NCBI GenBank assembly: GCA_948356915.1
Contig: CAOJCG010000012.1
Span: forward strand, 232-64,231
DNA: 64,000 nucleotides
Direction: 5' to 3'
Source of the DNA: an uncultured Clostridiaceae bacterium
Lineage (GTDB): Bacteria; Bacillota; Clostridia; TANB77; CAG-508
A model generated the notes under the pieces. The model was not told the DNA's origin and searched no databases. It saw only the letters and a list, made by a program, of their open reading frames with translations. Position numbers and translations under genes: made by a program. Of the stretch, positions 4,145 through 57,690 are shown in pieces (the first letter of the stretch is position 1; each line of letters starts with the position of its first letter).

Positions 4145-4183
4145 GTAGGGGCAATTTTAATCGCCTGCCTTCGAAGACATTTC
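4145..4183. repeat. REP-like element (GTAGGGGC-hairpin-CTTCGAAGA)
   Basis: gtaggggcaattttaatcgcctgccttcgaagacatttc. This member of the dispersed family keeps the 5' GTAG. Confidence 0.6.
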
Positions 4184-4366
4184 TATAAAATTTTAATACA
4201 AATATATTAATTTTTAGTACAATACATAAGAATATAAATTTTTTTAAGATACGCCTATGTAATATCGATCAATTATGCTAAAGTATAACTTATTTCTAAC
4301 TCGTTGTTGCTCAAAAAACTAAAAAAAAATCGCCCCTACACCTTGAAAAAACTTTATAAATATAAT

Positions 4367-4435
4367 ACAAGGGGCTGTAAAAAAGGAAAGATTTTGAACG
4401 CGTCCCAAATCTTTCCTTTTTTTACAGCCCCTTTA
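4367..4435. repeat. Long hairpin with GGCTGTAAAAAA / TTTTTTACAGCC flanks (palindrome family 2)
   Basis: ggggctgtaaaaaaggaaagattt ... aatctttcctttttttacagcccc forms a stem of about 24 bp. Confidence 0.55.
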
Positions 4436-4542
4436 TGAAATGACCTTGTATATTTAGAAAAATCGTTTGACAAATGTCGAAAATTGTAGTAATATTTAAA
4501 GTTAAGTGAACATAAGAGATAATAGAAAGGGGAGCAAATAAA

Positions 4543-6156
4543 ATGAAAAAAACATATATATTCGGACATAAAAATCCAGATACAGATTCAGTAACTTCAG
4601 CAATAGCACTTTCATACTTAAAAAATAAGCAAGGTTTTAATACAAAACCTGTAATATTAGACAGTTTAAATAGAGAAACTGAATTTGTATTAAAATACTT
4701 TAATATAGATGTTCCAGAATTTTTAAATGATGTAAAAATAAAAATAGAAGATATTGAATACTATAAAAACTTTTGTGCTAAAGAAAATGTAAGTATACTA
4801 AAAGCATATGAAGAAGTAAGAAAAAAAGCAGTCACTGCCATACCAATAACTTCAGAAAACAAAAAACTACTAGGACTACTTACATTAAAAGCAATAGCAA
4901 ATGAATTAATAAGTGGAAATTTTAATAAAATAGAAACTTCATATAAAAATATATTAGAAACTCTAAAAGCACAAGAAATAATAAAAATAGATGAAGAAAT
5001 TAGTGGAAATATATTAGTTGCAAGTTATGGTAGTGAAACAATAGTAACTAATATAAAAATGGATTCAGAAACAATATTAATAGTAGGTAATAGAAATAGA
5101 GTAATAGACTATGCAATAAGTAGTAGCGTAAAAATGCTAGTTGTAATAGGTGGTCATAAGCTATCTGAAGAACAACTAGATAAAGCAAAAGAAAACAAAG
5201 TAAATATAATATCTACACAATATGATGCTTTTTATACAGCAAAATTAATAGGACTAAGTAACTATGTAAAAAAACTAATAGATAACTCAAGAGTAGAAAG
5301 TGTAAATAAGAAAGACGATTTAGACGTACTACTACAAATGAGTGCTAAAAAAAGATACAATAACTATCCAGTTGTAAATGAAAAAGGAAAATGTGAGGGA
5401 CTAATTAGAATAACAGATATAAAAGAAAAAAATAATAAAAAAGTAATACTAGTAGACCATAATGAAATTGAACAAAGTGTTACAGGAATAGAAGAAGCAG
5501 AAATACTAGAAATAGTTGACCATCATAAAATAGGAAGTATTTCAACAACAAAGCCAATTAATTTTAGAAATATGAGTGTAGGAAGTACAAATACCATAAT
5601 ATATATGATGTATAAAGAAGCAAGAATAGAAATACCAAGTAATATAGCAGGAATTATGTTTTCAGGAATTGTATCAGATACACTAAACTTTACAAGTCCT
5701 ACAACAACTAAAATAGATATAGAAGCGGCAAATGAATTACAGAAAATAGCAGGTATTAACAAAGATGAATATGTTATGGAAATGTTCAAAGAAGGAACAA
5801 AAATAGATGGAAAAACAAAAGAAGAAATAATAACAAAGGACCTAAAAGTATTTCAAATAGATAATAAAAAAATAGCAGTTTCACAAGTACTAACATTATC
5901 GGCTAAAGAAATTCTGGAAGAAAAAGAACAATATATAGCGCAAATGGAAAAAATAAAAGAAGAAAAAGGATATTTTGTATTAATAATGTATTTAACAGAT
6001 ATAGTAAAAAAAGGTTCTTATGTACTATACACTGAAAGTGCAAAAGGTATTTTACAAAATGCAATACAATCAGAAGAAATATATCAAGGAATATATAGAA
6101 GTGGTATATTATCAAGAAAAAAACAAATTATACCAAAACTTATGAATTCTATATAA
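4543..6156 (+). CDS. ppaC: CBS-domain-containing family II (Mn-dependent, DHH) inorganic pyrophosphatase
   Basis: FGHKNPDTDS DHH motif, CBS insert, and VDHNE / DHHK / DHHA2 C-terminal motifs. 537 aa. Promoter TTGACA-17-TAATAT lies upstream. Confidence 0.8.
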   Translation: MKKTYIFGHKNPDTDSVTSAIALSYLKNKQGFNTKPVILDSLNRETEFVLKYFNIDVPEFLNDVKIKIEDIEYYKNFCAKENVSILKAYEEVRKKAVTAIPITSENKKLLGLLTLKAIANELISGNFNKIETSYKNILETLKAQEIIKIDEEISGNILVASYGSETIVTNIKMDSETILIVGNRNRVIDYAISSSVKMLVVIGGHKLSEEQLDKAKENKVNIISTQYDAFYTAKLIGLSNYVKKLIDNSRVESVNKKDDLDVLLQMSAKKRYNNYPVVNEKGKCEGLIRITDIKEKNNKKVILVDHNEIEQSVTGIEEAEILEIVDHHKIGSISTTKPINFRNMSVGSTNTIIYMMYKEARIEIPSNIAGIMFSGIVSDTLNFTSPTTTKIDIEAANELQKIAGINKDEYVMEMFKEGTKIDGKTKEEIITKDLKVFQIDNKKIAVSQVLTLSAKEILEEKEQYIAQMEKIKEEKGYFVLIMYLTDIVKKGSYVLYTESAKGILQNAIQSEEIYQGIYRSGILSRKKQIIPKLMNSI

Positions 6157-6299
6157 AAAAAATAAAAAAATATATGATTTTATTTGACTTTATTGTAAAA
6201 CTATGGTAGAATAAAAAAGCATATGTGGAATGCATATGCTTTTTAAAGTAGTTAAACAATAAAAAAATAAACAAAAAATAGGCATTGGAGGTGTTTTAA

Positions 6300-6461
6300 A
6301 TGGCCGTAGCAGTAAGAGAAAAAATTACATTAGAATGTACAGAATGTAAAAGAAGAAATTATATGACAGAAAAAAACAAAAGAAATAATACTGAAAGATT
6401 AGAAATTATTAAATATTGCAAACATTGCAAAAAACGTACAACACACAAAGAAACAAAATAA
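6300..6461 (+). CDS. rpmG: 50S ribosomal protein L33
   Basis: 53-aa [21 protein letters not shown]...CKHCKK zinc-ribbon L33. It precedes secE-nusG as in Firmicutes. Confidence 0.8.
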
Positions 6462-7401: not shown

Positions 7402-7407
7402 TTTAAT

Positions 7408-7538
7408 AAGAAGTTAGAAGTTGGAAAATAGAAGTTAGAAGTTAGAAGTTAGAAAATAGGGTAAATTCTTCGAAGAAATTACTTAAATATCCGACTTCCG
7501 ACATCTGACTTCCGACCTCCAATCTCTAACCTCCAATT
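7408..7538. repeat. Composite repeat: purine arm (GAAGTTAGAAGTTGG)n, CTTCGAAGAAATTAC core, pyrimidine arm (TCCGACTTCCGAC...CCTCCAAT)
   Basis: Read directly in the sequence. The arms are largely complementary. It lies in the rplK 5' leader. Confidence 0.7.
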
Positions 7539-7604
7539 AAATAAATAATCTATAATTATTACGATGTAAATATACATCAAAACTTAAAGGAGGTGCAAAG
7601 AACA

Positions 7605-8122: not shown

Positions 8123-8800
8123 ATGGGAAAAAGATTTGAAGAGTGCTCAAAACTTATCGATAAAAACAAATTATACGAAGTAAAAGAAGCACTAGAAGTA
8201 ATCGAAAAAATGCCAAAAGCTAAATTCGATGAAACAGTTGAATTACACGTAAAACTAGGTGTAGATTCAAAACATGCTGACCAACAAGTAAGAGGTACAA
8301 CAGTACTTCCACATGGTACAGGTAAAACATTAAGAGTATTAGTATTTGCAAAAGGACCAAAAGCTGAAGAAGCCCAAAAAGCAGGAGCAGACTTTGTAGG
8401 AGCAGAAGAACTAATACCAAAAATAGAAAAAGAAAATTGGTTTGACTATGATGTAATAGTAGCAACTCCAGATATGATGGGTGTTGTAGGAAGATTAGGA
8501 AAAGTATTAGGACCAAAAGGATTAATGCCAAACCCTAAATCAGGAACAGTTACAATGGATGTAACAAAAGCTATAAACGAAATCAAATCAGGTAAAGTTG
8601 AATACAGATTAGACAAAACTAACATTATCCATTTAGGTTTTGGAAAAGTTTCATTTGGTGCAGAAAAATTAGCTGAAAACTATGAAACAATAATGAATGC
8701 AATAATAAAAGCTAAACCAGCAGCAGCTAAAGGACAATATATTAAATCTGTTGCAATTTCTACAACAATGGGACCTGGAATGTATATTGATCAAAAATAA
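8123..8800 (+). CDS. rplA: 50S ribosomal protein L1
   Basis: 225-aa L1 with a strong RBS. Confidence 0.95.
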
Positions 8801-8927
8801 TAATTATAGTAGCCAAAGAAAGTAGGCATAAAAACAAGACCTACCGAGGCATAAAAAGAAAAGAGATTTACAAAAAATCTAATCTTTTATGCCAAATGTG
8901 GCTATAAAGATTAGATTTTTATATTAG

Positions 8928-9062
8928 AACAGAAGTCAGAAGGAAGAGAGTGGAAATTAAATAGTGTAGATGATTAGAAGACATTGTAGGGACGACTATT
9001 AGTCGTCCGCACTTCGAAGAAACTACCCAAAATCCGACATCCGACATCTGACCTCCGATATC
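8928..9062. repeat. Composite repeat with embedded REP hairpin (GTAGGGACGACTATTAGTCGTCC) and CTTCGAAGAAACTACCC core
   Basis: Purine arm agaagtcagaaggaagagagtgg. Pyrimidine arm atccgacatccgacatctgacctccgat. It lies in the rplJ leader. Confidence 0.7.
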
Positions 9063-9090
9063 AAAATTCTTTAGGAGGTGAAAAAACAAA

Positions 9091-9591: not shown

Positions 9592-9593
9592 AA

Positions 9594-9861
9594 CAGAAGA
9601 CGGAAGTCGAAAGACAGAAGTCAGAAGAAATATATGTAGGGAATAAATTGGTATAAAATAATATAATAGGGAATACCAAATTTTATCCAATACAAATAAA
9701 AAAGGTAGGGGCGAGCATCGCTCGTCCGAAAAAGAGTAGTGAACTTAAAACACTAGAAATATAAAGAAAGTTGGAAAAGGCAGAATAGAGAAGAAAGAAA
9801 TTAATAAGTATAAATATAAATTATATGAAATCCGACTTCCGACATCTGACCTCCGACTTCA
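9594..9861. repeat. Composite repeat cluster (purine arm, two GTAGGG-hairpin REPs, pyrimidine arm) in the rplL leader
   Basis: Contains cagaagacggaagtcgaaagacagaagtcagaag, then gtagggaataaattggtat, gtaggggcgagcatcgctcgtcc and atccgacttccgacatctgacctccgacttc. Confidence 0.65.
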
Positions 9862-9883
9862 ATAAAATAGGGAGGAAATTAAA

Positions 9884-11538: not shown

Positions 11539-11781
11539 ATGACACAAGAAGAAATATTTGAAAAAGTAAAAGGAATTATAGTTGAACAATTAGGTGTTAC
11601 AGAAACATCAGTAACAATGGAAGCTTCTTTTATAGATGACTTAGGAGCAGACTCATTAGATATTGTTGAATTAATAATGGCATTAGAAGAAGAATTCGAT
11701 ACAGAAATTCCAGATTCAGATGCTGAAAAAGTAGTTACAGTAGGTGACGTTGTTGACTACATAAAAGATCATGTTGAATAA
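11539..11781 (+). CDS. acpP: Acyl carrier protein
   Basis: DLGADSLD phosphopantetheine-attachment motif. 80 aa. Confidence 0.9.
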
Positions 11782-12037
11782 AACATAGAAATTAATTTTA
11801 ATATTATAAAAAAATAAAATAGTAGAAGTTTATTATAATTTCTGCTATTTTATTTTTATTATAGTATAGGAAAAAATAAATTTTAAATTGTAGGGGGAGA
11901 GCAGTACTCGTCAGCGTGGCGAAGCTACCTGTATTATAACTATATTGTATTTCTATGTTCAGCATATTGGAAAAAATTTCAAATACCTCTTTCAATTTCA
12001 AAAATTATGTTATATAATGTAACAAAAGGAGAGACAA

Positions 12038-12706: not shown

Positions 12707-12763
12707 TTATAAATTGTAGGGGGATTAAGCGATGAGGAATTCCAAAAAGAAAGGAGAAAAAAC

Positions 12764-13837: not shown

Positions 13838-13925
13838 AAAAGTGTGTCAAATGGGGTGGGGGATACACATCTTTAAAAGATAAAGTGTGTCAATATCCCC
13901 CGTCCCATTTGGCACACTTTTTTAA
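13838..13925. repeat. Nested long palindrome (family 2): GTGTGTCAAATGGGGTGGGGGATA...TATCCCCCGTCCCATTTGGCACAC
   Basis: About 21-bp outer stem enclosing an inner hairpin. A near-identical copy lies at 46123-46215. Confidence 0.65.
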
Positions 13926-15019: not shown

Positions 15020-16447
15020 ATGCAAAAAACAATGAAAATAATTGGCAAAATAATATCTTTATTAATTACATTAACATTAATATTTATAGCTTATAAAGTA
15101 TATAGTATAAATAATTTTAATGAATATATAAGGGCAGAATATAATAGTGGACTTTCTAATTTTTCAAGAGATACACAAAATAAATATTCAAAAAAGGATA
15201 GCTACAAAATAGAAAATACTGATTATAATGATGCAATGTTTTTTAAAACTATACCAGTTACGCCTAATACTTCATATAAAGTAAGTTGCATGATAAAAAC
15301 TGAAAAGGTAGTAAATAAAGAAGAAAATACAGATGCAGGAGCACATATATGTATAAATGAAACAACAGAAAAATCTGACAATGTAGTAGGAACAACAGAT
15401 TGGAAAAAAATAGAATTTGTATTTAATTCAAAAAATAGAAATGAAGTTCAAGTAGGTTTTAGGCTTGGAGGAAACTTTGATGACTCAAAAGGTACAGCAT
15501 GGTTTTCAGATATAACAATAGAGCAAGGAATAGCAGATAACTCCAACAATTGGAAGTTCTTATGCTTAATATTTGATAAAACAGACGTAAATTTAGAAAT
15601 AAATGGAGGGCTTAAAAACTTTAATTTAACATTATCAAATTCAGATGTAGAAGATATGAAATTATGTATAAACAGATTTAAAAATTCTATGGAACAGATG
15701 TCAAAAGGAAAAATGAAAGTAGAATGTAACATTTTAGAAGTAAAAACACCAATAACATCTATGTCATATGACGACGAAAACGGTTATTTTGTGTCACCAT
15801 ATGATGTAAAAGATGTAATAGACAAATATATACAAACAGGAAAATATGACCATATATTTATAGCATTTAGAACAGGAAATATAAATGCAAAAAATGAAAT
15901 ACCAGTAAATGATTGGATAGGACTTGGAAGTATGGAATATAGAAATATAGGATTTTCAAATATAAGACTTCCAAATAGTGACTCAAATTACATATATAAA
16001 TATGATGAAAGAATAAATACATTCCCAGAAGAAGTATATGTACATGAGTTTTTACATACTCTAGAAAGAAATGCACTAGAATACGGATATGAAAGACCAG
16101 AACTTCACGATAATGAAAAATATGGTTATAAAAGCCAAAGTATAACAGGATTAAAAAAATGGTATGAAGATTACATGAACAAAAATATAAAATCTTCTAT
16201 AAAAGGTTATATAGGACTTCCAGAAGAAATATATACAAAAAAACCATCAAAAAACACAGATTTTGAATATTCAAGAAAATTAGACTATCTTGAAGAACCA
16301 CAAAATATAATAGAAGAATTGAATATATTATTTAAAAGAATAGGAAATTTATTTAATGAAATAAGTAATGGAATACGGAAGGCAGAAGTCAGAAGTCGGA
16401 AGTCAGAACTAGAAGTTATAGTTTATAGGTTAGAGACTAGAAGCTAG
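15020..16447 (+). CDS. Membrane-anchored/secreted hypothetical protein with an HExxH motif
   Basis: N-terminal TM segment and a HEFLH motif. The last ~20 codons (AEVRSRKSELEVIVYRLETRS) are read through the purine-arm repeat, so the true C-terminus is uncertain. Confidence 0.45.
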   Translation: MQKTMKIIGKIISLLITLTLIFIAYKVYSINNFNEYIRAEYNSGLSNFSRDTQNKYSKKDSYKIENTDYNDAMFFKTIPVTPNTSYKVSCMIKTEKVVNKEENTDAGAHICINETTEKSDNVVGTTDWKKIEFVFNSKNRNEVQVGFRLGGNFDDSKGTAWFSDITIEQGIADNSNNWKFLCLIFDKTDVNLEINGGLKNFNLTLSNSDVEDMKLCINRFKNSMEQMSKGKMKVECNILEVKTPITSMSYDDENGYFVSPYDVKDVIDKYIQTGKYDHIFIAFRTGNINAKNEIPVNDWIGLGSMEYRNIGFSNIRLPNSDSNYIYKYDERINTFPEEVYVHEFLHTLERNALEYGYERPELHDNEKYGYKSQSITGLKKWYEDYMNKNIKSSIKGYIGLPEEIYTKKPSKNTDFEYSRKLDYLEEPQNIIEELNILFKRIGNLFNEISNGIRKAEVRSRKSELEVIVYRLETRS

Positions 16448-16605
16448 AAGTCGAAGAAGAGAAGATAGATAGAGAGTATTTTATTATAGTATAGCAAAAA
16501 GCAATTTTAACTTTAGGGAAAAGGGGCTTGTGTCTGCCCGCTCTTCGAAGAAATTACCCTAAAATCTGACCTCTGATATCTGCCTTCTGTCCTCTGTCCA
16601 CAAGA
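16376..16605. repeat. Composite repeat (purine arm, REP hairpin GGGGCTTGTGTCTGCCC, CTTCGAAGAAATTACCC, pyrimidine arm) in the queA leader
   Basis: Arms are ggcagaagtcagaagtcggaagtcagaac and atctgacctctgatatctgccttctgtcctctgtcc. Confidence 0.7.
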
Positions 16606-17663: not shown

Positions 17664-18789
<1,126 letters not shown>

Positions 18790-18811: not shown

Positions 18812-20260
18812 ATGGAAATAATAGGAACTAACCAAGAAGAAAAACAAAAGAAAAGCAAAAAGTTAATGATAGTAATAACAATACTAATTATTATATTATT
18901 AATTATCAGTATAGGTTTATTTACTGCAATTTATTATTTAAAAGCACAACAATTTAAATTTGTGATAGATGGTAAATCAATATCAAGTAAATCTATGGCA
19001 AATGATTTATTTGTATATGAAAATGATAACATATATGTTTCATTAAGAGATATATCAGAATTAATAGATTATAAATATTATAATGGTGGATACAAACAAT
19101 ATACAGAAGATACAACCAAATGCTACTTAGAAGGCAAAAATGAAGTTGCTACTTTTGAAAAAGATTCAAATACTATATATAAAACAAAAGTAGGAGAATT
19201 AGACTATACTTATTTTACATTAGATGAACCAATAAAAAGAATAAATGGCAAGCTATACATTAGTTCAAAAGGGCTAAATACAGCATGTAACCTTCAAATG
19301 AGCTATGATAAAGAAGCAAATAGAATGACAATATATACTCTACCATATTTAACAAATTATTATATGACTAGATATTCAAATGCTTCTCTTGAAACAAACT
19401 TTAATAACCAAAAAGCCTTGTTATATGGTTTATTAGTAGTACAAAATGTAGATAACACAGATAAAAATACATCTAATGCTAATATAAGATATGGTATTCA
19501 TAATTTAAATAATGAAGAAATAGTTGGAACAAAATATACAAATATTGATTTCATAGAAGGAACAGAAGAATTTATTGTAACAACAGAAGAAAAAAAAGTT
19601 GGAATAATAACATCAGAAGGTGATACAAAAGTAAATCCACAATATGATGCATTAAAGCAAATTGATAAAAAATTAAATTTATATATGGCAACAACAAATG
19701 GTAAAAGTGGTATAATAGAGAAAAATGGAAAAATATTAATTTATTTAGAATATGAACAAATAGGAATAGATGCAAACCAATTCCCAACAAATGATATAAA
19801 GAATAAGTACATATTATTTGATAATGCAATACCAGTTAAACAAAATGGAATGTGGGGATTATTTGATATAAGAGGAAATCAAATATTACCACTAGAATAT
19901 GTAAGTTTAGGATGTATATCAAAAACAAGTTCTAATAGAAGTTTAAACAATATATTAGTAATACCAGATGTTGAAGGAATAGTAGTATGTCAAGAAATAG
20001 AAAGAGATTCTAGGAAAACAGAAATTTATGGAATAGTAAACTCAAGAGGAAAAGAATTAATACCAATGTGTTTAGAAACAGTATATTCTGTAACAGTATC
20101 AGGAAAAGATGAATATACAATGGTAAATAACGGCAACTCGATTGATGTAATAGAATATGTAAAATTAACAAGAGAATTTGAAGAAGAAAATAACAAAAAC
20201 ACTACTACAAATACAGTAACAAATGAGGTATCAAATACAATTCAAAATACGCAAAGTTAA
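18812..20260 (+). CDS. Membrane-anchored protein with WG-containing repeats
   Basis: ATG at 18812 follows RBS aggagg. One TM segment, then repeats of the KNGK..G.I..NG / MWGLFD type. Confidence 0.5.
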   Translation: MEIIGTNQEEKQKKSKKLMIVITILIIILLIISIGLFTAIYYLKAQQFKFVIDGKSISSKSMANDLFVYENDNIYVSLRDISELIDYKYYNGGYKQYTEDTTKCYLEGKNEVATFEKDSNTIYKTKVGELDYTYFTLDEPIKRINGKLYISSKGLNTACNLQMSYDKEANRMTIYTLPYLTNYYMTRYSNASLETNFNNQKALLYGLLVVQNVDNTDKNTSNANIRYGIHNLNNEEIVGTKYTNIDFIEGTEEFIVTTEEKKVGIITSEGDTKVNPQYDALKQIDKKLNLYMATTNGKSGIIEKNGKILIYLEYEQIGIDANQFPTNDIKNKYILFDNAIPVKQNGMWGLFDIRGNQILPLEYVSLGCISKTSSNRSLNNILVIPDVEGIVVCQEIERDSRKTEIYGIVNSRGKELIPMCLETVYSVTVSGKDEYTMVNNGNSIDVIEYVKLTREFEEENNKNTTTNTVTNEVSNTIQNTQS

Positions 20261-20266
20261 AAAAAT

Positions 20267-20370: not shown

Positions 20371-20472
20371 TTTCATTTTTTATGTACTATATATTTTTAA
20401 TTATAGCAAAGGAATATAATAAACGAACCCAAAATTATAATACTCATATAGTATAGTAGGAGGTTGCATGTT

Positions 20473-21117
20473 ATGAATCAAATAGAAAAAAAGACAATAA
20501 AAGGAGAGTTAAAGTATAAAAATACAGTAATACTTACATACAAAATAGAATATCCACAAATGATTTCTACTAAATATACATATGGGAAGGAAATATTTAA
20601 TAATTACAATAAAAAAAAGGCAATTGACTTAGAAAAATATATAAAAACAGATTTATATGAAAATGCCAAAGAAGTATATGAATATAATAAGGCAAATGGC
20701 TATCCTATTATGGTATTCGAAGTAATATCAGAATATCATATAACTTATAATGAAGGATTTATTGTAAGCTTATATCAAGATGAATACCAATTTACAGGAG
20801 GAGCACATGGAAGTACAATAAGAACTTCTCAAAACTGGAATTTAAAAGAGGCAAGTACTATACCACTAACATACTTTTTTCCTAATAACCCATATTATAC
20901 AATAGACATATTAAAAGAAATAAATAGTCAAATAAAAACGCAAATAGAAGAAGGGAAAAACCAATATTTTGAAAACTATTGTGAACTAGTATTAGAAACA
21001 TTTAATTTAAGCAACTATTATATAATGCCAAATCAAATAGCAATATATTTTCAACAATACGATATAGCACCATACTCAAGTGGAATACCAGTATTTTTAA
21101 TCAGGACCGCACACTAG
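20473..21117 (+). CDS. DUF3298/DUF4163 (RsiV-like) domain protein
   Basis: FTGGAHG motif. The last codons (IRTAH) and the stop lie inside a REP copy. Confidence 0.6.
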   Translation: MNQIEKKTIKGELKYKNTVILTYKIEYPQMISTKYTYGKEIFNNYNKKKAIDLEKYIKTDLYENAKEVYEYNKANGYPIMVFEVISEYHITYNEGFIVSLYQDEYQFTGGAHGSTIRTSQNWNLKEASTIPLTYFFPNNPYYTIDILKEINSQIKTQIEEGKNQYFENYCELVLETFNLSNYYIMPNQIAIYFQQYDIAPYSSGIPVFLIRTAH

Positions 21118-21166
21118 GGACGGTCCTTTTCGTTCCGAAATCGGAACGCTGGGGACACTCCTTAAG
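21103..21166 (+). repeat. REP copy (TAGGGACGGTCCTTTTCGTTCCGAAATCGGAACGCTGGGGACACTCCTTAAG)
   Basis: Same sequence as the REPs flanking the RAYT at 23444 and 24428. Confidence 0.8.
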
Positions 21167-23444: not shown

Positions 23445-24486
23445 CGTGTTAGGGACGCACGTTAGGGACGGTCCTTTTCGTTCCAAAATCGGAACGCTAG
23501 GGACACTCCTTAAACTAAATAATGGGGAATTATGGTTTATTGAGATTGGATTAAAAGATATAATAGGGGAAATTATATTTTAAACTAAAAACAAAAATTA
23601 AATAGGGGCTTAAAATAATAAAAGAAAGAAGGTAATATTATGCCCCGAATGGCAAGAAAAAGTTTAGAAAAAGGTTTTATGCATATAATGGCTCAAGGAA
23701 TAAAAAAAGAAAAAATATTCTACAAAGATGACTATAAAGAAAAATATATTAAATTAATAAAGTTTTTTAAAGAAAAGCAAAAAGTAGAAATTATTAATTA
23801 TTGTGTAATGAATAATCATGTTCACATTATTATATACACTGAAGATATAGATGAATTAACAATATTTATGAGAAAGTTAAATACAACATATGCTTTACAT
23901 TATAATAAATCAGAAAATAGAGTAGGCTATGTATTTAGAAATAGATTTGAAAGTAAAGAAATATATAATCAAGATTACCTAACAAAATGTATAAAATATG
24001 TACATATGAATCCAGTAAAAGCAGGAATTACGAAAACAGAAGGAGAATATAAATATTCAAGTTATAATGACTATATAAACAAAAAAGGAATTATAACAGA
24101 TGAATTATTACAAAAAATATTTAATTCAAAATATAATTATTTAAAGGAATTCTTAAAGATAGAATATGACGAAGAATTATTCGAAGAACTAGAAAAAGAA
24201 GAACTTACAAATGAAAAGCTAAAAGAACAAATAGAACAATTTATAAAAAAAGAACAAGTAACCTTAGGAGAATTAAAAAACGATAAAAGATTAATAAAAA
24301 AACTATATAATACAATGAAGTTAAAACCAACAAAAGCGAAATTAGGAGAATGTATAGGACTAAGTAGAACAAGAATAAGTAAGATATTAAATGATTATAA
24401 AGAAAATAAAAAATAAGGAGTAAGCAAAGGAGTGTCCCCAGCGTTCCGAATTCGGAACGAAAAGGACCGTCCCTAGCGTGCGGAAG
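23444..24486 (+). mobile_element. REPtron: REP, RAYT gene, inverted REP
   Basis: REP at 23444-23512 (+) and its reverse complement at 24428-24486 flank a Y1/HUH transposase. The unit sits between the ATPase and permease genes of one ABC transporter. Confidence 0.8.
23640..24416 (+). CDS. REP-associated tyrosine transposase (RAYT, IS200/IS605-like Y1 HUH)
   Basis: HUH motif NNHVHIIIY and catalytic Tyr region YVFRNRF...KYVHMNPVKAGI. 258 aa, intact. Confidence 0.8.
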   Translation: MPRMARKSLEKGFMHIMAQGIKKEKIFYKDDYKEKYIKLIKFFKEKQKVEIINYCVMNNHVHIIIYTEDIDELTIFMRKLNTTYALHYNKSENRVGYVFRNRFESKEIYNQDYLTKCIKYVHMNPVKAGITKTEGEYKYSSYNDYINKKGIITDELLQKIFNSKYNYLKEFLKIEYDEELFEELEKEELTNEKLKEQIEQFIKKEQVTLGELKNDKRLIKKLYNTMKLKPTKAKLGECIGLSRTRISKILNDYKENKK

Positions 24487-27741: not shown

Positions 27742-27823
27742 AAGAAAAGGAAAAAATTGATTTGTAGGGATACCATTTGTATGTATACACGTTGTGCTCG
27801 TTTATTATTTTAGATGTAGGGGC

Positions 27824-27860
27824 GATTAGCAATCGCCCGCTCTTCGAAGAAATAGCTTAA
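27824..27860. repeat. REP-like element GTAGGGGCGATTAGCAATCGCCCGCTCTTCGAAGAAAT
   Basis: GTAG 5' motif, 8-bp stem gggcgatt/aatcgccc and CTTCGAAG core. Confidence 0.7.
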
Positions 27861-27897
27861 AGAATAGCATTAAACGTGTAAAATTACCCGCTCCCAC

Positions 27898-36512: not shown

Positions 36513-36542
36513 TAAAAATAGAATAGCAAATTAAATTCAATT

Positions 36543-36590
36543 GTAGGGGCGTGGCCTTGTGTCCGCCCTATGCTACAACGAAATTCCTTA
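36543..36590. repeat. REP-like element GTAGGGGCGTGGCCTTGTGTCCGCCC...CGAAATTCC
   Basis: GTAGGGGC plus hairpin. Confidence 0.55.
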
Positions 36591-36702
36591 AATAATAAAC
36601 ATTATTAGGATATGCCTTTGAGGAGGGACAGACACTAGGCATGCCTCTACATCGAATTTAATAACTGTTAAATATAATATTTAAAAATAAGGATGTGATA
36701 AT

Positions 36703-41086: not shown

Positions 41087-41315
41087 TTTAAATAGTGAAA
41101 ACGTAATTTATTATATTTACTGTTAAAGAATATTTTGTTATATAGGGGCGAGGTAGGTAAGAAATACTAAAAGAAATTAGCTAGTTGCCCCCTAAATAGT
41201 TTTCATTTTAAGAGGTAAATAATAAAAAACAAGTTGACATATTGTATGGTTTTATGTATAATATAAGAAGTTAAAAAGAAAGTAATAAACCAATTCTTAA
41301 TTAAGGAGGTAATAT

Positions 41316-46122: not shown

Positions 46123-46215
46123 CTGTAAAAAAGTGTGTCAAATGGGACGGGGGATATTGACACATCTTTAAAAGATAAAGAGTGTCAATATCCCCCGTCC
46201 CATTTGACATTTAAA
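46123..46215. repeat. Nested long palindrome (family 2), near-identical to 13838-13925
   Basis: ggctgtaaaaaagtgtgtcaaatgggacgggggata ... tatcccccgtcccatttgaca. The 21-bp outer stem is perfect. Confidence 0.7.
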
Positions 46216-50679: not shown

Positions 50680-50766
50680 ACTAGAAATTAGAGAATATAT
50701 AAAAAAACTTCGAGGGATTTGCTAAAAATCCAACATCCAACTTCCAACCTCTAACTTCTACATTCC
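50680..50766. repeat. Partial composite repeat (CTTCGAG core-like segment plus pyrimidine arm TCCAACATCCAACTTCCAACCTCTAACTTC) in the rnhB leader
   Basis: Read directly in the sequence. Confidence 0.6.
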
Positions 50767-50781
50767 AAAGGAAGGTAAAAA

Positions 50782-51409
50782 TTGAAAGAAAAAGAATTAC
50801 AAAGATTAACTGAACTAAAACAAATAGAAGAAAACTTACATTCACAAGGAATAGAATACATATGTGGAATAGATGAAGCAGGGCGTGGTCCACTAGCAGG
50901 GCCAGTAGTAGTTGCAGCAACAATAATGCCAAAAGATTCAATGATAGAAGGAGTTAATGACTCAAAAAAAGTTTCAGAGAAAAAAAGAGAATTACTATAC
51001 GAAAAAATAACTGAAGAAGCAATAGCGTGGGGAGTAGGTATAATAGACCAAAAAGAAATAGATAGAATAAATATACTAAATGCAACAAAAGAAGGACTAA
51101 CTCAAGCACTAAAAGCACTAACTGTAAAGCCAGATAGAATAATAGTAGATGCCCTAAATGGAATAGATACACTTCGGAATACCATACACATCAATAATAA
51201 AGGGAGACGCAAAATGCTATTCAATAGCAGCAGCCTCAATAATAGCAAAAGTAACAAGAGATAGAATAATGCGTCAGTGGGATGAAATATACCCTATGTA
51301 TGGCTTTGAAAAACATAAGGGATATGGAACAAAAGCACACATAGAAGCAATAAAAGAATATGGCTTATGCCCATTACATAGACTAAGCTTTACTAAGAAT
51401 ATAAGATGA
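50782..51409 (+). pseudogene. rnhB: Ribonuclease HII, frameshifted
   Basis: ICGIDEAGRGPLAGPVV is in frame 1. The conserved C-terminal region [31 protein letters not shown]...[14 protein letters not shown]...HRLSF is in the +1 frame, and the shift is near 51172-51178 (cttcgga). Confidence 0.75.
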
Positions 51410-52823: not shown

Positions 52824-52921
52824 ATCTCATTTCCCCCTATTCATATTATGACATATTTTAGACGATTGGTCAATATATTTGTAAGAAGAAGTTTTTGAGG
52901 TGTTAAATGGGCCGTCAGAAA

Positions 52922-53122
52922 GTTTGAAATATTAATGATTTTTAGATGTTAACGGTTCATTAAAAAATTTAAGAACTTCTATGCTCAATTTTCGGCACCC
53001 TTTCTGTGCTCGTTCCTTTAAAATAAAGGAACGCCACGAACATTTTCCAAAAATTTCGCAAAGAATTTCTAAAGTTGTTTTAACTCACACATTAACATCT
53101 AAAAATTGTTAATATTTCAAGC
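52922..53122. repeat. Element of about 200 bp bounded by 32-bp imperfect inverted repeats (MITE-like or invertible segment)
   Basis: Left arm is gtttgaaatattaatgatttttagatgttaac. Right arm is attaacatctaaaaattgttaatatttcaagc. The 137-bp core contains nested hairpins. Confidence 0.5.
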
Positions 53123-53170
53123 TTTCTGACTACTCTACTGTTCACAACTTGCAGCTAAAATATTTCATGT

Positions 53171-53320
53171 TGTAGGGGCTTAATCGGTTAGGAATACCAA
53201 AGAGAACTTATCGGATTACGCCCTCTAAACGTATATTTAAGATTAATACCAATATTAAAATTATCTAAGGGCGAAATTTGGTATTCCCAGAGAGGTATTC
53301 CTTACTGATTTAGCCCCTAC
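53171..53320. repeat. Inverted pair of REP-like elements (GTAGGGGCTTAATCGGTTAGGAATACC ... GGTATTCCTTACTGATTTAGCCCCTAC)
   Basis: BIME-like inverted REP pair. A direct half-copy lies at 57631-57690. Confidence 0.65.
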
Positions 53321-53397
53321 AGTAATTCTAAAATATTTAGTGGCTATGAATATTAATCTATATAATGTATAAATATAGAAAAATTTTCACAAACGTA

Positions 53398-55532: not shown

Positions 55533-55544
55533 AAGACCAAAATT

Positions 55545-55574
55545 CAAATGTAGGGGTCGCCGAAGGCGGCGACC
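55545..55574. repeat. Perfect palindromic REP GTAGGGGTCGCCG-AA-GGCGGCGACCCCTAC
   Basis: 13-bp perfect stem with GTAG/CTAC ends, between the MMPL gene and the downstream gene. Confidence 0.7.
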
Positions 55575-55614
55575 CCTACACAACCATTAAGCAAAAAAGA
55601 AAGGAATGAAAAAT

Positions 55615-57555
55615 ATGAATAAAAAAATAACAAAACTAACCAGCACACTATTATTAACCACAATGCTAGCATACACAACACCTATTCTAGCATTCACAAA
55701 AGAAGAAACAGTATATTCAAAAATAAATGCAAAAGGAGAAAACTACAAAACAATAGTAAGTACACATTTAGGAAACGAAAATGAAGAACAAATTTTAAAC
55801 GATTTAACAGACTTAATAAATATAGAAAACACAAATGGAGATGAAGACTTTAAACTAGATGGAGAAAATATAATCTGGAATGCAAATGGCTCAGATATTT
55901 ATTACCAAGGAGAAACAAAAAAAGAACTACCAGTACAATGTAATATAAAATATGAACTTAATGGAGAAGAAATAGAAGCAAGCGAAATAATAGGAAAAAG
56001 TGGAAAAGTAAAAATAACAATAGAATATAAAAATAATGATTCACATATAGTTACAATAAATGGAAAGAAACAAACTATGTACACACCATTTACAACAATT
56101 GCTATGACCTATATTGACAATTCACAAAATAAAAATATAGAAGCTAAAAATGCTAAAATTATAAATGATGGAACCAAAACAATTATAGCAGGTATTGCAA
56201 TGCCAGGAATGCAAGAAAGTTTAAATATTTCTAATAAAAAAATAGAAATACCAAGCAAAGTAGAAATAACAATGGAAACTTCAAAATTTGAACAAAATAA
56301 TATAATAACATTTATAACACCTAAAGTATTAGATGAAAGTATATCATTTGATAAATTAAATAACCTATATAAAAAGGTAGATGAAATGCAAACAGCTAGT
56401 AAACAAATAGAAGAAGGAGCAAATGCTTTAAAAGAAGGAACAACAGAGTTTAGCAAAAAAACACAAGAATTTAATAATGGAATGAAACAATTTGAAGAGG
56501 GGACAAATAAAGCAAGTAATAGCTATAAAGAAATTGACAATGGAATAAACCAAGTAACAAAAGGAAGTAAATACTTAAAAACAGGTAGCATAGAATTAAA
56601 CAATGGACTAACAGCTCTTTCTAATGGACTTTCTAGTATGCCAGAAAATATAGAAAAATTATATAATGGAAGTAGTGCAGTTTTAGCAGGTTTAAGTGAT
56701 AATAAAGAAACAAATGGGGTAGGTCTTGTAACAGGGATAAATGCATTAGCAGGTAGCTTAAATGATACAATTTCAAATTTAGAAAAAAGCTTAAATACAA
56801 TGAAAACAAGTTGTGAAGAAGGAGTAACAAAATTAACAAAAAGCAATAGTGTTTTAAATTCAGTAATAGCTACATTAAATGCCGAAACTCAAAGTGTTCA
56901 AATTGAAACATTAAAACAAATAGTAAAACAAAATGAAGAAGCTATAAAAGAATACAATGTTAAAATACAATATATTAATACTCAGCTAAAAGAATTAAAT
57001 AATAAAAAGGTAGAAGGAAAAAAGAATATTTCAAAAATAACAACAGGAATGAAAGAAGTTCAAAATGGAGTAAGTGAATTAACAAATGGACTAAGTAAAT
57101 TAAATGTTGCATCAACTACATTACCAGAGAACTTAAATAAATTAGTACAAGGTTCAAAAAAATTAGCAAATGGAACAGAAGAATTAAATAAAGGAACAAC
57201 AGCATTAAGTGCAGGTTCAAAACAAATGGAGCAAGGTTTAAATACATTAAAAGAATCAAGTAAAATACTTGCAAGTGGTTCAAATGCTTTAACACAAGGA
57301 GCAGAAATAATAAATAATGGAAGTATTGAACTAGCACAAGGAATAACAACATTTAATCAAGAAGCAATAAACAAAATATGTAGTTATATAAATTCAGATA
57401 TAAAAGAAATAGCTATAAGAGCAGAAAAATTACAAGAGCTTTCAGAAGAATATGTAAGCTTTACAAAAGCAAATGAAAATACAGCAAAAGAAGTTAAATT
57501 TATATTGATAACAGATAGTATAAAAATAAAAGAAGAAAAAAGTGAAAACGAATAG
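55615..57555 (+). CDS. Secreted protein with LxxG heptad (YhgE/Pip N-terminal-like) repeats
   Basis: Signal peptide plus many NGL..L..G repeats and coiled coil. No C-terminal TM segment. Confidence 0.5.
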   Translation: MNKKITKLTSTLLLTTMLAYTTPILAFTKEETVYSKINAKGENYKTIVSTHLGNENEEQILNDLTDLINIENTNGDEDFKLDGENIIWNANGSDIYYQGETKKELPVQCNIKYELNGEEIEASEIIGKSGKVKITIEYKNNDSHIVTINGKKQTMYTPFTTIAMTYIDNSQNKNIEAKNAKIINDGTKTIIAGIAMPGMQESLNISNKKIEIPSKVEITMETSKFEQNNIITFITPKVLDESISFDKLNNLYKKVDEMQTASKQIEEGANALKEGTTEFSKKTQEFNNGMKQFEEGTNKASNSYKEIDNGINQVTKGSKYLKTGSIELNNGLTALSNGLSSMPENIEKLYNGSSAVLAGLSDNKETNGVGLVTGINALAGSLNDTISNLEKSLNTMKTSCEEGVTKLTKSNSVLNSVIATLNAETQSVQIETLKQIVKQNEEAIKEYNVKIQYINTQLKELNNKKVEGKKNISKITTGMKEVQNGVSELTNGLSKLNVASTTLPENLNKLVQGSKKLANGTEELNKGTTALSAGSKQMEQGLNTLKESSKILASGSNALTQGAEIINNGSIELAQGITTFNQEAINKICSYINSDIKEIAIRAEKLQELSEEYVSFTKANENTAKEVKFILITDSIKIKEEKSENE

Positions 57556-57630
57556 AAAGAGAAGAAGAACTCATGTGAGCTCTTCTTTTCTTTCCATTCT
57601 AAGAAAGTATATGATTTAAAGTTAAGAGTG

Positions 57631-57690
57631 TAGGGGCTTAATCGGTTAGGAATACCAGTGAGTATTTACCGAATTACGCCCTCTATTGCG
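57631..57690. repeat. REP-like element GTAGGGGCTTAATCGGTTAGGAATACC...CCGAATTACGCCC
   Basis: Direct copy of the left half of 53171-53320. Confidence 0.65.

What the first reader, a model, noticed from the sequence alone, without database searches (positions are those of the whole stretch)
4145..57690. Dense family of GTAGGG(G)-hairpin-CTTCGAAGAAAT REP-like elements (at least 13 copies in 64 kb)
Copies lie at 4145, 8986, 9646, 9706, 11890, 12716, 16514, 27824, 36543, 41146, 53171-53320 (inverted pair), 55545 (perfect palindrome) and 57631. Each has a 5' GTAG(G) motif followed by a short GC-rich hairpin of variable sequence. Often a conserved CTTCGAAGAAATTACC tail follows, and CTTCGAAG is itself palindromic. 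The conserved GTAG next to a variable stem is how RAYT-recognised REPs are built. The RAYT-flanking REPs here share the TAGGGACG head with copy 8986. A frequency of about 1 per 5 kb, including inside ribosomal-protein operons, is unusually high.
Basis: seen in the sequence. Interest (0 to 1): 0.65.

Follow-up and report, generated by a model that had tools for sequence, protein, structure and literature searches.

The report
GTAG-headed hairpin repeats, gut Clostridia
This AT-rich gut Clostridia genome carries several related families of small GC-rich hairpin repeats that start with TGTAG, built like the REP elements of proteobacteria, but the tyrosine transposase gene in the window has its own, different flanking repeats and is not shown to move them.

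Summary
The enrichment is real: GTAGGGG occurs 13 times against 1.4 expected, and TGTAGGG 16 times against 2.5. The 13 listed copies are not one family.

- A covariance model finds four solid copies of the GTAG + 8-bp stem + CTTCGAAGAAATTACC unit (4138, 8979, 9698, 27809) and two diverged ones (16517, 36536).
- The other copies are a second GTAG hairpin type with a 13-bp stem (9635, 53171, 53321, 57629), full palindromes (55549, 41141) or stumps (11890, 12716).
- Five stem types stay complementary and recur at non-orthologous loci and in other species.
- Singlets, head-to-head doublets and a tandem trimer occur.
- Occupancy differs between close relatives, and at one orthologous site the stem type is swapped while the tail is kept.

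This matches published GTAG-tagged REPs.

The tail is half of a 26-30-nt palindromic core. That core also occurs without a hairpin and sits inside long hairpins with heptamer-repeat arms in ribosomal-protein operon spacers.

The Y1 transposase (23640-24416) looks like the TIRYT / subclass 2.1 type. It is flanked by 57-bp inverted repeats carrying GGGGACAC. It is single-copy and syntenic in relatives.

Verdict: a new member of a known kind. The link to the transposase is unproven.

The parts
4138..4190 (+). GTAG hairpin unit, stem type T1 (GGGCAATT/AATCGCCT, decayed), with CTTCGAAGACAT tail
   Evidence: Scores 59.4 bits with model R1. Sequence seen. An identical copy is in the same-species contig L001.
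4300..4341 (-). Degenerate inverted partner (GTAGGGGCGATTTTTTTTT) of the 4138 unit, about 190 bp away
   Evidence: GTAGGGG lies on the - strand at 4333-4339. Sequence seen.
7402..7545 (+). Heptamer-armed long hairpin in the nusG-rplK spacer. Its centre (7457-7485) is the palindromic core TAGGGTAAATTCTTCGAAGAAATTAC, with no GC hairpin.
   Evidence: TRF reports period 7. The fold is -45.2 kcal/mol, z -7.45. The hairpin is absent in L011, L013 and L020, present in L012, L014, L016 and L017, and much longer in L014.
8926..9075 (+). Armed element between the L10 leader and the rplJ RBS. It holds a GTAG unit of stem type T4 (8979-9032, GGACGACT/AGTCGTCC) plus the tail CTTCGAAGAAACTACCC.
   Evidence: The unit scores 65.1 bits with R1. 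L10_leader covers 8795-8930. Same-species contigs L001-L005 and L008-L010 carry a hairpin-less core here, while L006 and L007 match the window.
9635..9690 (+). Decayed long-stem GTAG hairpin ('E type') in the rplJ-rplL spacer.
   Evidence: It is orthologous in L001, L011, L013, L014, L017, L018 and L020. The 13-bp stem is 89% paired, with C-G to U-A changes.
9698..9751 (+). GTAG hairpin of stem type T5 (GGGCGAGC/GCTCGTCC), without a tail
   Evidence: Scores 49.6 bits with R1. Present in L018, degenerate in L013, absent in L017 and L020.
11882..11935 (+). TGTAGGGGG head with a degenerate stem and a degenerate tail (GGCGAAGCTACC), upstream of rnc
   Evidence: Sequence seen. Not recovered by R1 at E up to 10.
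12709..12750 (+). Truncated GTAG unit in the rnc / radical-SAM spacer
   Evidence: Scores 17.8 bits with R1. The same site holds a 150-bp head-to-head doublet in L001-L003 and a tandem trimer in L020.
16376..16600 (+). Armed element upstream of queA. It has a TTTAGGG head, a T3-like hairpin GGGGCTTGTGTCTGCCC and the full tail CTTCGAAGAAATTACCCTA (16517-16564).
   Evidence: The unit scores 28.3 bits with R1. TRF period 7 at 16378-16416. The 240-bp stretch is replaced by 42 bp in L013.
21109..21165 (+). Solo copy of the 57-bp inverted-repeat family that flanks the transposase
   Evidence: nhmmer scores it at 65.2 bits. It is 96% complementary to 24427-24483 (I1).
23457..23514 (+). Left terminal inverted repeat of the Y1 transposase module (TAGGGACGGTCC..CGTTCCAAAATCGGAACG..GGGACACTCC)
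   Evidence: (I5, 93% complementary arms).
23640..24416 (+). Y1 (HUH) tyrosine transposase gene, 258 aa, of RAYT group 1 / TIRYT type, inserted between an ABC ATPase gene and an FtsX permease gene
   Evidence: Pfam Y1_Tnp. NCBIfam REP_Tyr_transpos scores 71.8 bits against a cutoff of 80, while IS200 scores 19.7. The best PDB sequence hit is E. coli TnpAREP 4ER8. A 91%-identical homolog sits at the same site.
24426..24481 (-). Right terminal inverted repeat of the Y1 module (contains GGGGACAC)
27763..27863 (+). Two TGTAGGG heads. The second (27809-27863) is a canonical T1 unit, GGGCGATT-AGC-AATCGCCC, with the tail CTTCGAAGAAATAGC.
   Evidence: Scores 63.1 bits with R1. At the orthologous site, L223 has a T2 stem with the same tail and flanks.
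36536..36657 (.). Head-to-head doublet between fusA and tuf: a T3 hairpin GTAGGGGCGTGGCCTTGTGTCCGCCC (+) and GTAGAGGCATGCC... (-)
   Evidence: R1 scores the two halves at 24.7 and 14.7 bits. The whole doublet folds at -25.3 kcal/mol, z -5.42. The same T3 hairpin lies in the rnc spacer of L017 and L020.
41141..41196 (+). Imperfect palindrome TAGGGGCGAGG...GTTGCCCCCTA. Its membership of the family is doubtful.
   Evidence: Not found by R1. The region is replaced by other DNA in relative L222.
53171..53321 (.). Head-to-head doublet of the long-stem GTAG hairpin (E type), in a divergent promoter region
   Evidence: D16, I10. The fold is -29.8 kcal/mol, z -6.55.
55549..55580 (.). Palindrome TGTAGGGGTCGCCG-AAGG-CGGCGACCCCTACA with a T2 stem, between two co-directional genes
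   Evidence: The T2 stem also occurs in L020 at 11599, in L121 and in L223.
57629..57685 (+). Single E-type GTAG hairpin, 89% identical to 53171-53227
   Evidence: D16.

Best explanation
The window carries a mixed population of GTAG-tagged REP-type repeats. Each unit is a short GC-closed hairpin with an unpaired T-GTAG at its 5' foot. There are at least five short-stem types and one long-stem type.

The units occur as singlets, head-to-head doublets (REPIN-like) and tandem clusters. They sit almost only in spacers between co-directional genes.

**Proposed mechanism.** Such units are non-autonomous. They are copied or exchanged as single-stranded DNA hairpins by an HUH Y1 (RAYT-type) enzyme that reads the GTAG and the stem on the GTAG-bearing strand. 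Here that is the G-rich strand, which serves as the lagging-strand template.

Many units sit inside, or next to, a separate 26-30-nt palindromic core (TAGGGTAATTTCTTCGAAGAAATTACCCTA).

**Shown:** enrichment, hairpin architecture, stem types shared between non-orthologous loci and between species, differences in occupancy between relatives, and a Y1 gene with its own repeat family.

**Inferred:** movement through a Y1 enzyme and single-stranded DNA, and which enzyme does it. The Y1 gene in the window is probably not the dedicated partner.
For: **Enrichment.**

**Architecture.**
- T-GTAG is followed by a 7-13-bp stem and a 2-5-nt loop.
- Stem cells are 94.7-94.9% paired. Sixteen cells are changed on both sides, against 4.0 +/- 1.7 in shuffles.
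- The long-stem type is 89% paired.
- There are 21 G.T pairs against 7 A.C pairs, so the GTAG strand keeps the hairpin better.

**The same stem type at non-orthologous loci and in different species.**
- T3 lies between fusA and tuf in the window, and in the rnc spacer of L017 and L020.
- T2 lies at 55549 and also in L020, L121 and L223.
- T1 lies at 27816 and 4145, in L001, L020 and L222, and in about 14 metagenome loci.

**Arrangements.** Doublets fold as long hairpins, z -4.3 to -6.6. L020 holds a tandem trimer.

**Occupancy differs between relatives.**
- The rnc spacer holds a stump in the window, a doublet in L001-L003 and a trimer in L020.
- The queA element is missing in L013.
- The rplA-rplJ spacer is polymorphic within the species.
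- The stem type is swapped after the FtsX gene in L223.

**Distribution.**
- The model finds the family only in the window's lineage, three more distant relatives (L052, L065, L074) and one metagenome clade, across 1.19 Mb.
- All of about 29 distinct hits are intergenic.

**Match to the literature.**
- The features match the published definition of GTAG REPs.
- A Y1 enzyme of RAYT type is encoded in the window.
Against: - No Y1 gene flanked by these hairpins was seen. The one present is flanked by an unrelated 57-bp repeat family. It appears to belong to the subclass for which no canonical REPs are reported.
- Relatives with the same Y1 module have few GTAGGGG sites in 20 kb.
- No clean filled-versus-empty site was found. 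Every presence/absence case sits in a spacer that differs in other ways too, so insertion boundaries and target sequence are unknown.
- Several copies are kept at orthologous sites across species and are always co-oriented with genes. This also fits selection on the transcript.
- Much of the 'covariation' is between propagated stem types and is not independent compensatory change.
- Only 64 kb of this genome was seen, so the genome-wide copy number is unknown.
Confidence: 0.6

Rival explanations
1. The units are mainly functional RNA modules of operon transcripts. Candidate roles are processing sites, stabilisers or translation-coupling structures. Selection on the mRNA keeps them, and their spread is secondary.
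For: - All distinct hits are co-oriented with the flanking genes, and most end 10-60 nt before an RBS.
- G.T pairs outnumber A.C pairs 21 to 7 on the sense strand.
- Copies in the rplA-rplJ and rplJ-rplL spacers persist at orthologous positions across species with 83-99% L10 identity.
- The 79-nt consensus folds as one long hairpin, z -3.9.
- The cores sit inside long stems that reach from the upstream stop codon to the downstream RBS.
Against: - The same spacers lack the units in other close relatives and even within the species.
- The downstream genes are unrelated.
- Several armed elements fold as well or better on the antisense strand.
- Gene strand and replication direction coincide across the window, so co-orientation does not discriminate.
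- No Rfam family matches.
Confidence: 0.2
2. The units are MITEs left by a DDE-type insertion sequence whose terminal inverted repeats begin TGTAGGGGC. The doublets would be the complete elements and the singlets broken halves.
For: Doublets are bounded by TGTAGGGGC...GCCCCTACA and fold end to end. Their internal sequence is variable.
Against: - No target-site duplication is visible at the 36536 or 53171 doublets.
- Most units are singlets with their own complete hairpin.
- The only DDE element seen in relatives has unrelated ends.
- Head + hairpin is the conserved unit; an element end is not.
Confidence: 0.08
3. There is no family. An AT-rich genome needs GC-rich stems for terminators and attenuators, and unrelated hairpins happen to share GGGGC.
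For: The window holds several other GC-rich palindromes that act as terminator-like structures (13838, 20260, 38290, 46126). Some listed copies (41141, 11890) do not fit the model.
Against: - T-GTAG lies outside the stem yet is invariant.
- TGTAGGG is enriched 6.5-fold.
- Identical 20-26-nt stems recur at unrelated loci and in other species.
- The units are not followed by T-runs.
Confidence: 0.05

Closest known systems
GTAG-tagged REPs (Di Nocera et al. 2013, PMC3733652); canonical REPs with 5' GT[AG]G at the hairpin foot (Quentin et al. 2018, PMC6006769)
   Same: - An unpaired GTAG sits at one end.
- Stems are 7-13 bp and loops are short.
- Sub-families carry complementary stem changes and G.T pairs.
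- Singlets, head-to-head dimers and clusters all occur.
- The units are extragenic, mostly between co-directional genes.
   Different: - The host is an uncultured 27-28% GC gut Clostridia lineage. Neither Clostridia nor Firmicutes is mentioned in the main text of PMC3733652.
- The units lie mostly upstream of the next gene's RBS, whereas published REPs are mostly downstream of coding regions.
- Many are coupled to a palindromic CTTCGAAG core and to heptamer-repeat arms.
- No cognate REPtron was seen.
REPINs (Bertels and Rainey 2011, PMC3116915)
   Same: Two inverted REP units separated by a spacer fold into one long hairpin: 36536-36657, 53171-53321 and L001 13022-13135.
   Different: Only three or four doublets were seen and most units are singlets. 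The arms are imperfect. No population of near-identical copies could be shown, and no flanking RAYT was seen.
TIRtron / TIRYT (PMC3733652), equated with TnpAY1 subclass 2.1 and RAYT group 1 (PMC6006769, PMC5581495)
   Same: This comparison applies to the Y1 gene at 23640-24416.
- Long inverted repeats with a GGGGWSAS motif (GGGGACAC) flank the gene.
- The protein has a C-terminal extension with a weak HTH signal.
- The gene is single-copy and syntenic in relatives.
- There are a few solo copies of the repeats.
- Group 1 is reported in Clostridia.
   Different: It applies to the transposase module only, not to the GTAG hairpins. In this genome a GTAG hairpin population coexists with the module. 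The gene's position differs between the window, L013 and the L211/L217 group.
Transcribed intergenic palindromic repeats such as ERIC (enterobacteria), Correia elements (Neisseria) and BOX/RUP (pneumococcus). This comparison rests on my own knowledge.
   Same: They are 100-250-nt imperfect palindromes lodged inside operons, co-transcribed, and variable between strains. The comparison applies to the heptamer-armed hairpins.
   Different: The arms are built of period-7 purine and pyrimidine repeats whose length differs between relatives. No terminal repeats or duplications were seen, and there is no sequence relation to those elements.

Membership tests
GTAG-tagged REP | Unpaired GTAG (GT[AG]G) at the 5' foot of the hairpin | tested here: met
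   GTAG is invariant, and the preceding T nearly so, in 19 aligned units. TGTAGGG occurs 16 times against 2.45 expected.
GTAG-tagged REP | Stem of 6-13 bp with a short loop | tested here: met
   Stems are 7-11 bp with loops of 2-5 nt in the short types. The long type has a 13-bp bulged stem.
GTAG-tagged REP | Sub-families with complementary stem changes; G.T pairs common | tested here: met
   Five stem types stay complementary. Stem cells are 94.9% paired, with 16 double-sided changes against 4.0 in shuffles. G.T 21 against A.C 7.
GTAG-tagged REP | Many dispersed extragenic copies in the genome | tested here: inconclusive
   About 16 heads at 12 intergenic sites in 64 kb. The whole genome was not available. 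Some metagenome contigs end inside or next to a unit (L136, L157, L221).
GTAG-tagged REP | Dimers (head-to-head, tail-to-tail or head-to-tail) and clusters | tested here: met
   Head-to-head doublets at 36536-36657, 53171-53321 and in L001. A tandem trimer in L020 at 11599-11771.
GTAG-tagged REP | Mobility: the same unit at non-orthologous sites, and presence/absence between relatives | tested here: inconclusive
   The same stem types occur at different loci and in different species. Occupancy differs between relatives. No clean empty site was found.
REPtron (RAYT gene with its cognate REPs) | A Y1/HUH transposase of RAYT type is encoded | tested here: met
   Y1_Tnp. REP_Tyr_transpos scores 71.8 bits, below the 80-bit cutoff, against 19.7 for IS200. 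The HUH and YxxxNPVKxG motifs align to TnpAREP 4ER8.
REPtron (RAYT gene with its cognate REPs) | The gene is flanked by the same REP family that is dispersed in the genome | tested here: not met
   The flanks are the 57-bp inverted-repeat family, not GTAG hairpins. Only the 8-mer TAGGGACG is shared with copy 8986.
TIRtron / TIRYT (TnpAY1 subclass 2.1) | The Y1 gene is flanked by long terminal inverted repeats carrying GGGGWSAS | tested here: met
   The arms are 56 nt and 93% complementary (I5). GGGGACAC is present in the window's right and solo copies and in L217, and in the L013 left copy; other copies carry one-base variants (AGGGACAC, TGGGACAC, AGGGACGC).
TIRtron / TIRYT (TnpAY1 subclass 2.1) | C-terminal helix-turn-helix extension | tested here: inconclusive
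   The protein is 258 aa against a core of about 120 aa. HTH_3 scores 21.3 bits (cutoff 23) at residues 231-254.
TIRtron / TIRYT (TnpAY1 subclass 2.1) | Single copy with a stable genomic context; a few solo repeat copies | tested here: met
   Each of P0010, P0039, P0002, P0071 and P0063 shows one context. Solo repeats occur in the window, L217, L019, L044 and L015.
IS200/IS605 insertion sequence | The transposase matches the IS200 model; several identical copies in different contexts | tested here: not met
   The IS200 model scores 19.7 bits against a cutoff of 55. There is one copy in the window and one context per homolog.
REPIN | Two inverted REPs that fold into one long hairpin | tested here: met
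   Fold z-scores are -5.4, -6.6 and -4.3 for the three doublets.
REPIN | A replicating population of near-identical doublets tied to one RAYT | not testable with these tools
   This needs the complete genome. Only 64 kb plus about 30 kb of same-species contigs were available.
Any Rfam RNA family | Match to a curated covariance model | tested here: not met
   There are no hits at gathering score. At E up to 1, only L10_leader (8795-8930) and chance miRNA or snoRNA hits appear.

The most novel reading that the evidence does not exclude
The GTAG hairpin, the CTTCGAAG palindromic core and the period-7 purine/pyrimidine arms may together form a lineage-specific modular RNA system.
- Long stems would join the stop codon of one cistron to the RBS of the next in ribosomal-protein and other operons.
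- They would set processing or translational coupling.
- The purine arms contain GGAGG/GGAAG, which resemble a Shine-Dalgarno sequence. The pyrimidine arms contain CCUCC, which resembles the anti-Shine-Dalgarno sequence.
- The apical GTAG hairpin would be a swappable cassette, exchanged between sites by a Y1 enzyme.
Probability: 0.12. Interest if true: 0.65.

Novelty: new member of a known kind. Interest (0 to 1): 0.35.

Why it matters
- It extends GTAG-tagged REP-type repeats to an uncultured, very AT-rich gut Clostridia lineage. REP and RAYT work has centred on proteobacteria and cyanobacteria.
- It gives a case where such hairpins coexist with a TIR-flanked (apparently subclass 2.1) Y1 gene. 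That subclass has no known substrate beyond its own inverted repeats.
- Stem types are swapped at fixed sites while the neighbouring core is conserved. This is a concrete, testable trace of how these hairpins are exchanged.
- In practical terms, the repeats break metagenome assemblies and inflate intergenic divergence in this clade.
- The heptamer-armed stems that bracket ribosomal-protein spacers are the least expected item and deserve their own look.

Tried and rejected
- **Fusobacterium origin.** I guessed this from the 27% GC. It is rejected: the L10 relatives are uncultured Clostridia MAGs.
- **Metagenome-wide pattern scan** (GTAGGGN{10,38}TTCGAAGAAAT). 
- **Extra same-species DNA around fusA-tuf.** Look-ups with the fusA and long tuf ORFs found nothing. 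The trimmed tuf protein gave only a contig that starts after the 36536 doublet.
- **Locus L221.** It is 99.9% identical to the window and so uninformative.
- **Clean filled and empty sites.** The L222 palindrome at 5862 and the 41146 site both lie in replaced spacers, so no insertion boundary could be read.
- **A second Y1 gene.** A tblastn search of all fetched loci found only the known Y1 genes.
- **More distant Y1 homologs** (P0071, P0063). These have no flanking repeats at all, so they say nothing about a link to GTAG hairpins.
- **A DDE element as the source.** The IS seen in L213 has unrelated ends.
- **Known RNA families.** None match.
- **Literature search for the sequences themselves.** It found nothing relevant.
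- **Sense-strand-only folding of the armed hairpins.** This is not supported, because the antisense strand folds as well or better.

Full report
**Setting**

The window is 27-28% GC. Nearly all genes lie on the + strand and GC skew is positive throughout. It holds:
- secE-nusG-rplK-rplA-rplJ-rplL;
- plsX-acpP-rnc;
- queA-tgt;
- an ABC transporter interrupted by a Y1 transposase gene;
- rpsL-rpsG-fusA-tuf;
- further housekeeping genes.

The L10 protein places the window among uncultured gut Clostridia MAGs from human, rabbit and mouse. Contigs L001-L010 come from the same species, and L011-L090 are species representatives with 62-99% L10 identity.

The short motifs are strongly over-represented:

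| Motif | Observed | Expected |
|---|---|---|
| GTAGGGG | 13 | 1.42 |
| TGTAGGG | 16 | 2.45 |
| TAGGGRC | 19 | 4.24 |
| CTTCGAAGAAAT (up to 1 mismatch) | 8 | 0.35 |

Fourteen of the 16 TGTAGGG sites are intergenic. The only minus-strand sites are partners of inverted pairs.

The full head-hairpin-tail pattern occurs just three times. A covariance model of T-GTAG + 8-bp stem + tail (R1, built from alignment A1) gives these scores in the window:

| Position | Bits |
|---|---|
| 8979 | 65 |
| 27809 | 63 |
| 4138 | 59 |
| 9698 | 50 |
| 16517 | 28 |
| 36536 | 25 |
| 12709 | 18 |

It does not find 11890 or 41146. So the enrichment is confirmed, but 'one dense family of at least 13 copies' is not.

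**What the listed copies are**

1. *Short-stem GTAG units.* After T-GTAG comes one of about five stems, each internally complementary:
   - T1, GGGCGATT/AATCGCCC: 27816, 4145 (decayed), L001, L020, L222 and a metagenome clade.
   - T2, GGGTCGCCG/CGGCGACCC: 55549, L020, L121 and L223.
   - T3, GGGGCGTGGCCTTGTGTCCGCCC: 36543, L017 and L020, with a variant at 16517.
   - T4, GGACGACT/AGTCGTCC: 8986 and L013.
   - T5, GGGCGAGC/GCTCGYCC: 9705, L011 and L018.
2. *A long-stem GTAG hairpin.* This is TGTAGGGGCTTAATCGGTTAGGAATACC...CGCCC, with a 13-bp bulged stem.
   - It lies at 53171 (+), 53321 (-) and 57629.
   - The 9635 copy is orthologous in at least seven related genomes.
3. *Closed palindromes.* In these the head pairs with CCCCTAC: 55549 in the window, and L222 at 5862.
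4. *Stumps.* These lie at 11890 and 12716.

**Hairpin constraint**

- On the hand-checked alignment, 94.7% of stem cells pair. With the partner slid by one to three columns, only 30-47% pair.
- On the 32 distinct hits from 1.19 Mb, 94.9% pair. Sixteen cells are changed on both sides, against 4.0 +/- 1.7 in shuffles.
- Much of this signal is between the stem types above, which are copied as units, so it does not measure independent compensatory events.
- G.T pairs (21) outnumber A.C pairs (7). The hairpin is therefore better kept on the GTAG strand.

**The tail is a separate module**

CTTCGAAGAAATTACC(CTA) is the right half of a palindromic core, TAGGGTAATTTCTTCGAAGAAATTACCCTA.

The core also exists without any GC hairpin:
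- in the window at 7457-7485;
- in the rplA-rplJ spacer of L001, L011, L012 and L014;
- in the nusG-rplK spacer of L012, L014, L016 and L017.

In a metagenome clade the unit is a 79-nt imperfect palindrome. Its left arm, AGTAATCTATGAA, mirrors the tail, and the GTAG hairpin sits at the apex.

In this species and several relatives the core lies at the centre of long hairpins. Their arms are period-7 repeats: (AGAAGTT / GGAAGTT / AGAAGTC)n on the left and (CCGACTT / CCAACTT / CCAACCT)n on the right.

**Evidence for movement or exchange**

- T3 lies between fusA and tuf in the window but in the rnc / radical-SAM spacer of L017 and L020.
- That rnc spacer holds a stump in the window, a 150-bp head-to-head doublet in the same-species contigs L001-L003, and a T2-T1-T3 tandem trimer in L020.
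- The 240-bp element upstream of queA is replaced by 42 bp in L013.
- Between the L10 leader (8795-8930) and the rplJ RBS, occupancy varies:
  - the window, L006 and L007 have a T4 unit;
  - same-species contigs L001-L005 and L008-L010 have a hairpin-less core;
  - L016, L017 and L020 have another stem type with the same tail;
  - L018, L022 and L023 have nothing.
- After the FtsX gene, the window has T1 and the close relative L223 has T2. The tail variant GAAGAAAT(A/G)GCTTAAAG and the flanks are conserved there.
- No case gave a clean empty site, so boundaries, target sequence and the absence of duplications remain unknown.

**The transposase**

ORF 23640-24416 (258 aa) is a Y1/HUH protein:
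- It matches Pfam Y1_Tnp.
- NCBIfam REP_Tyr_transpos scores 71.8 bits, below the 80-bit cutoff, against 19.7 bits for IS200.
- Its best PDB sequence hit is E. coli TnpAREP, with the HUH and YxxxNPVKxG motifs aligned.
- It carries a weak C-terminal HTH signal.

It is flanked by 57-bp inverted repeats: TAGGGACGGTCC-TTTT-CGTTCCGAAATCGGAACG-CTGGGGACACTCC. A solo copy lies at 21109.

The same module, including a conserved AAATAGGGGC just upstream of the RBS, is found in relatives:
- Homologs at 66-79% identity sit in one conserved context, ABC-F | Y1 | (acetyltransferase) | Tex.
- The 91% homolog sits at the window's own site.
- The L013 copy sits at a third site.

Solo repeats occur in L217, L019, L044 and L015. 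Homologs at 45-47% identity sit in yet another conserved context and have no flanking repeats.

This is the 'TIRtron/TIRYT' arrangement, with the GGGGWSAS motif present as GGGGACAC. Quentin et al. equate it with TnpAY1 subclass 2.1 and RAYT group 1. That group has C-terminal HTH domains and no canonical REPs nearby, and it occurs in Clostridia.

The repeat family tied to this gene is therefore the 57-bp repeat, not the GTAG hairpins. Loci that carry the module have few GTAGGGG sites.

**Most likely mechanism**

The GTAG hairpins match the published definition of GTAG-tagged REPs point by point. They include head-to-head doublets that fold as REPIN-like long hairpins, with z from -4.3 to -6.6.

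By analogy with E. coli TnpAREP and IS608 (established knowledge, summarised in PMC6006769), I infer that an HUH Y1 enzyme handles them as single-stranded hairpins and reads the GTAG and the stem.

Two observations fit this:
- The GTAG strand is the G-rich strand throughout the window, which is the lagging-strand template.
- G.T pairs exceed A.C pairs.

Both would also fit selection on the sense transcript, because gene direction and replication direction coincide here.

Which enzyme acts is open. It could be a RAYT elsewhere in the genome, or the TIR-flanked enzyme. The latter's own repeats and upstream region carry TAGGGAC and TAGGGGC.

**Comparison and novelty**

- The hairpins are a new member of a known kind: GTAG REPs in a new host lineage.
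- The main text of the survey of GTAG repeats names neither Clostridia nor Firmicutes.
- The sequences themselves are not in the searchable literature.
- A density of about one per 4-5 kb is similar to that of REP-rich proteobacteria (my own knowledge).

Two features stand out: stem types swapped at fixed sites, and the coupling to a palindromic core with heptamer-repeat arms that bracket ribosomal-protein spacers.

**Limits**

- Only 64 kb of the genome and a few short same-species contigs were available.
- Alignment A2 is fitted to the model.
- The copies are related by descent, so shuffle controls overstate significance.
- The metagenome scan was saturated by chance hits.

Noticed in passing
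window 7402-7545, 8926-9075, 9592-9628 with 9770-9862, 16376-16600, 33340-33605, 34083-34415 (three in tandem), 50700-50770: Long hairpins whose arms are period-7 repeats: purine-rich (AGAAGTT/GGAAGTT/AGAAGTC)n on the left and pyrimidine-rich (CCGACTT/CCAACTT/CCAACCT)n on the right. The left arm starts at or over the upstream stop codon and the right arm ends just before the next RBS. Most are in ribosomal-protein operons. Arm length differs greatly between relatives and the arms co-vary (GTC/GAC against GTT/AAC). Purine arms contain GGAGG/GGAAG and pyrimidine arms contain CCTCC.
   Followed up: partly
window 13838-13925 and 46126-46210; also 20260-20381, 4390-4434, 38290-38330: A family of long GC-containing palindromes placed like terminators after genes. 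The first two are 97% inverse copies of each other, 32 kb apart. The centres of the 13838 and 38290 palindromes carry GGGAC or its complement GTCCC. The tuf terminator keeps its outer stem but has a different inner stem in relative L222.
   Followed up: partly
window 27880-28060: A nested palindromic element of about 190 nt. Outer arms are CCCGCTCCCACGGTGTTTGATTT and AAATCAAACACCCCTCGTG, with an inner palindrome around 27950-28005. It is conserved at about 90% in relative L223. It may be another repeat family or a structured RNA.
   Followed up: no
window 23520-23639; L211 9945-10000; L217 9920-10000; L013 17480-17546; L223 1110-1237: The motif AAATAGGGGC, in one to three copies, is conserved between the left inverted repeat and the RBS of the Y1 transposase gene in every homologous module examined. 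It may be a binding or regulatory site and shares TAGGGGC with the hairpin heads.
   Followed up: partly
window 18576-18751, 51265-51400, 42342-44171: Possible frameshifts or truncations. The tgt reading frame breaks near 18578 and its C-terminal CxCxxC region continues in another frame. The RNase HII ORF stops at 51264 with coding-like sequence after it. The alaS ORF is only 609 aa. These may be assembly errors or pseudogenes.
   Followed up: no
window 52914-52966 and 53078-53130: A 53-nt inverted repeat (83% complementary, 111 nt apart) lies in the divergent TetR / MMPL promoter region, immediately upstream of the long-stem GTAG doublet.
   Followed up: no
L229 7840-7880; L231 and L232 equivalents: Y1 homologs at 45-47% identity sit in a conserved recD2 | Y1 | comF-like | KAP NTPase context with no flanking repeats. 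The recD2 terminator loop there carries GGGACAGTCC, resembling the GGGACGGTCC at the start of the window's inverted repeats.
   Followed up: partly
window 9738-9760 and all relatives' rplJ-rplL spacers: A small hairpin, GTAGTGAACTTAAAACACTA, is conserved upstream of rplL in all species examined down to 62% L10 identity. It is probably an unannotated rplL leader element. The lineage-specific repeats were added around it.
   Followed up: partly
window 38809-38831 and 39087-39142: Further hairpin fragments related to type T1 (GGGCGATTATTAATTGCCTG, without GTAG) and other GC-rich pieces lie in a 1.5-kb gene-poor stretch after tuf that also holds small minus-strand ORFs.
   Followed up: no
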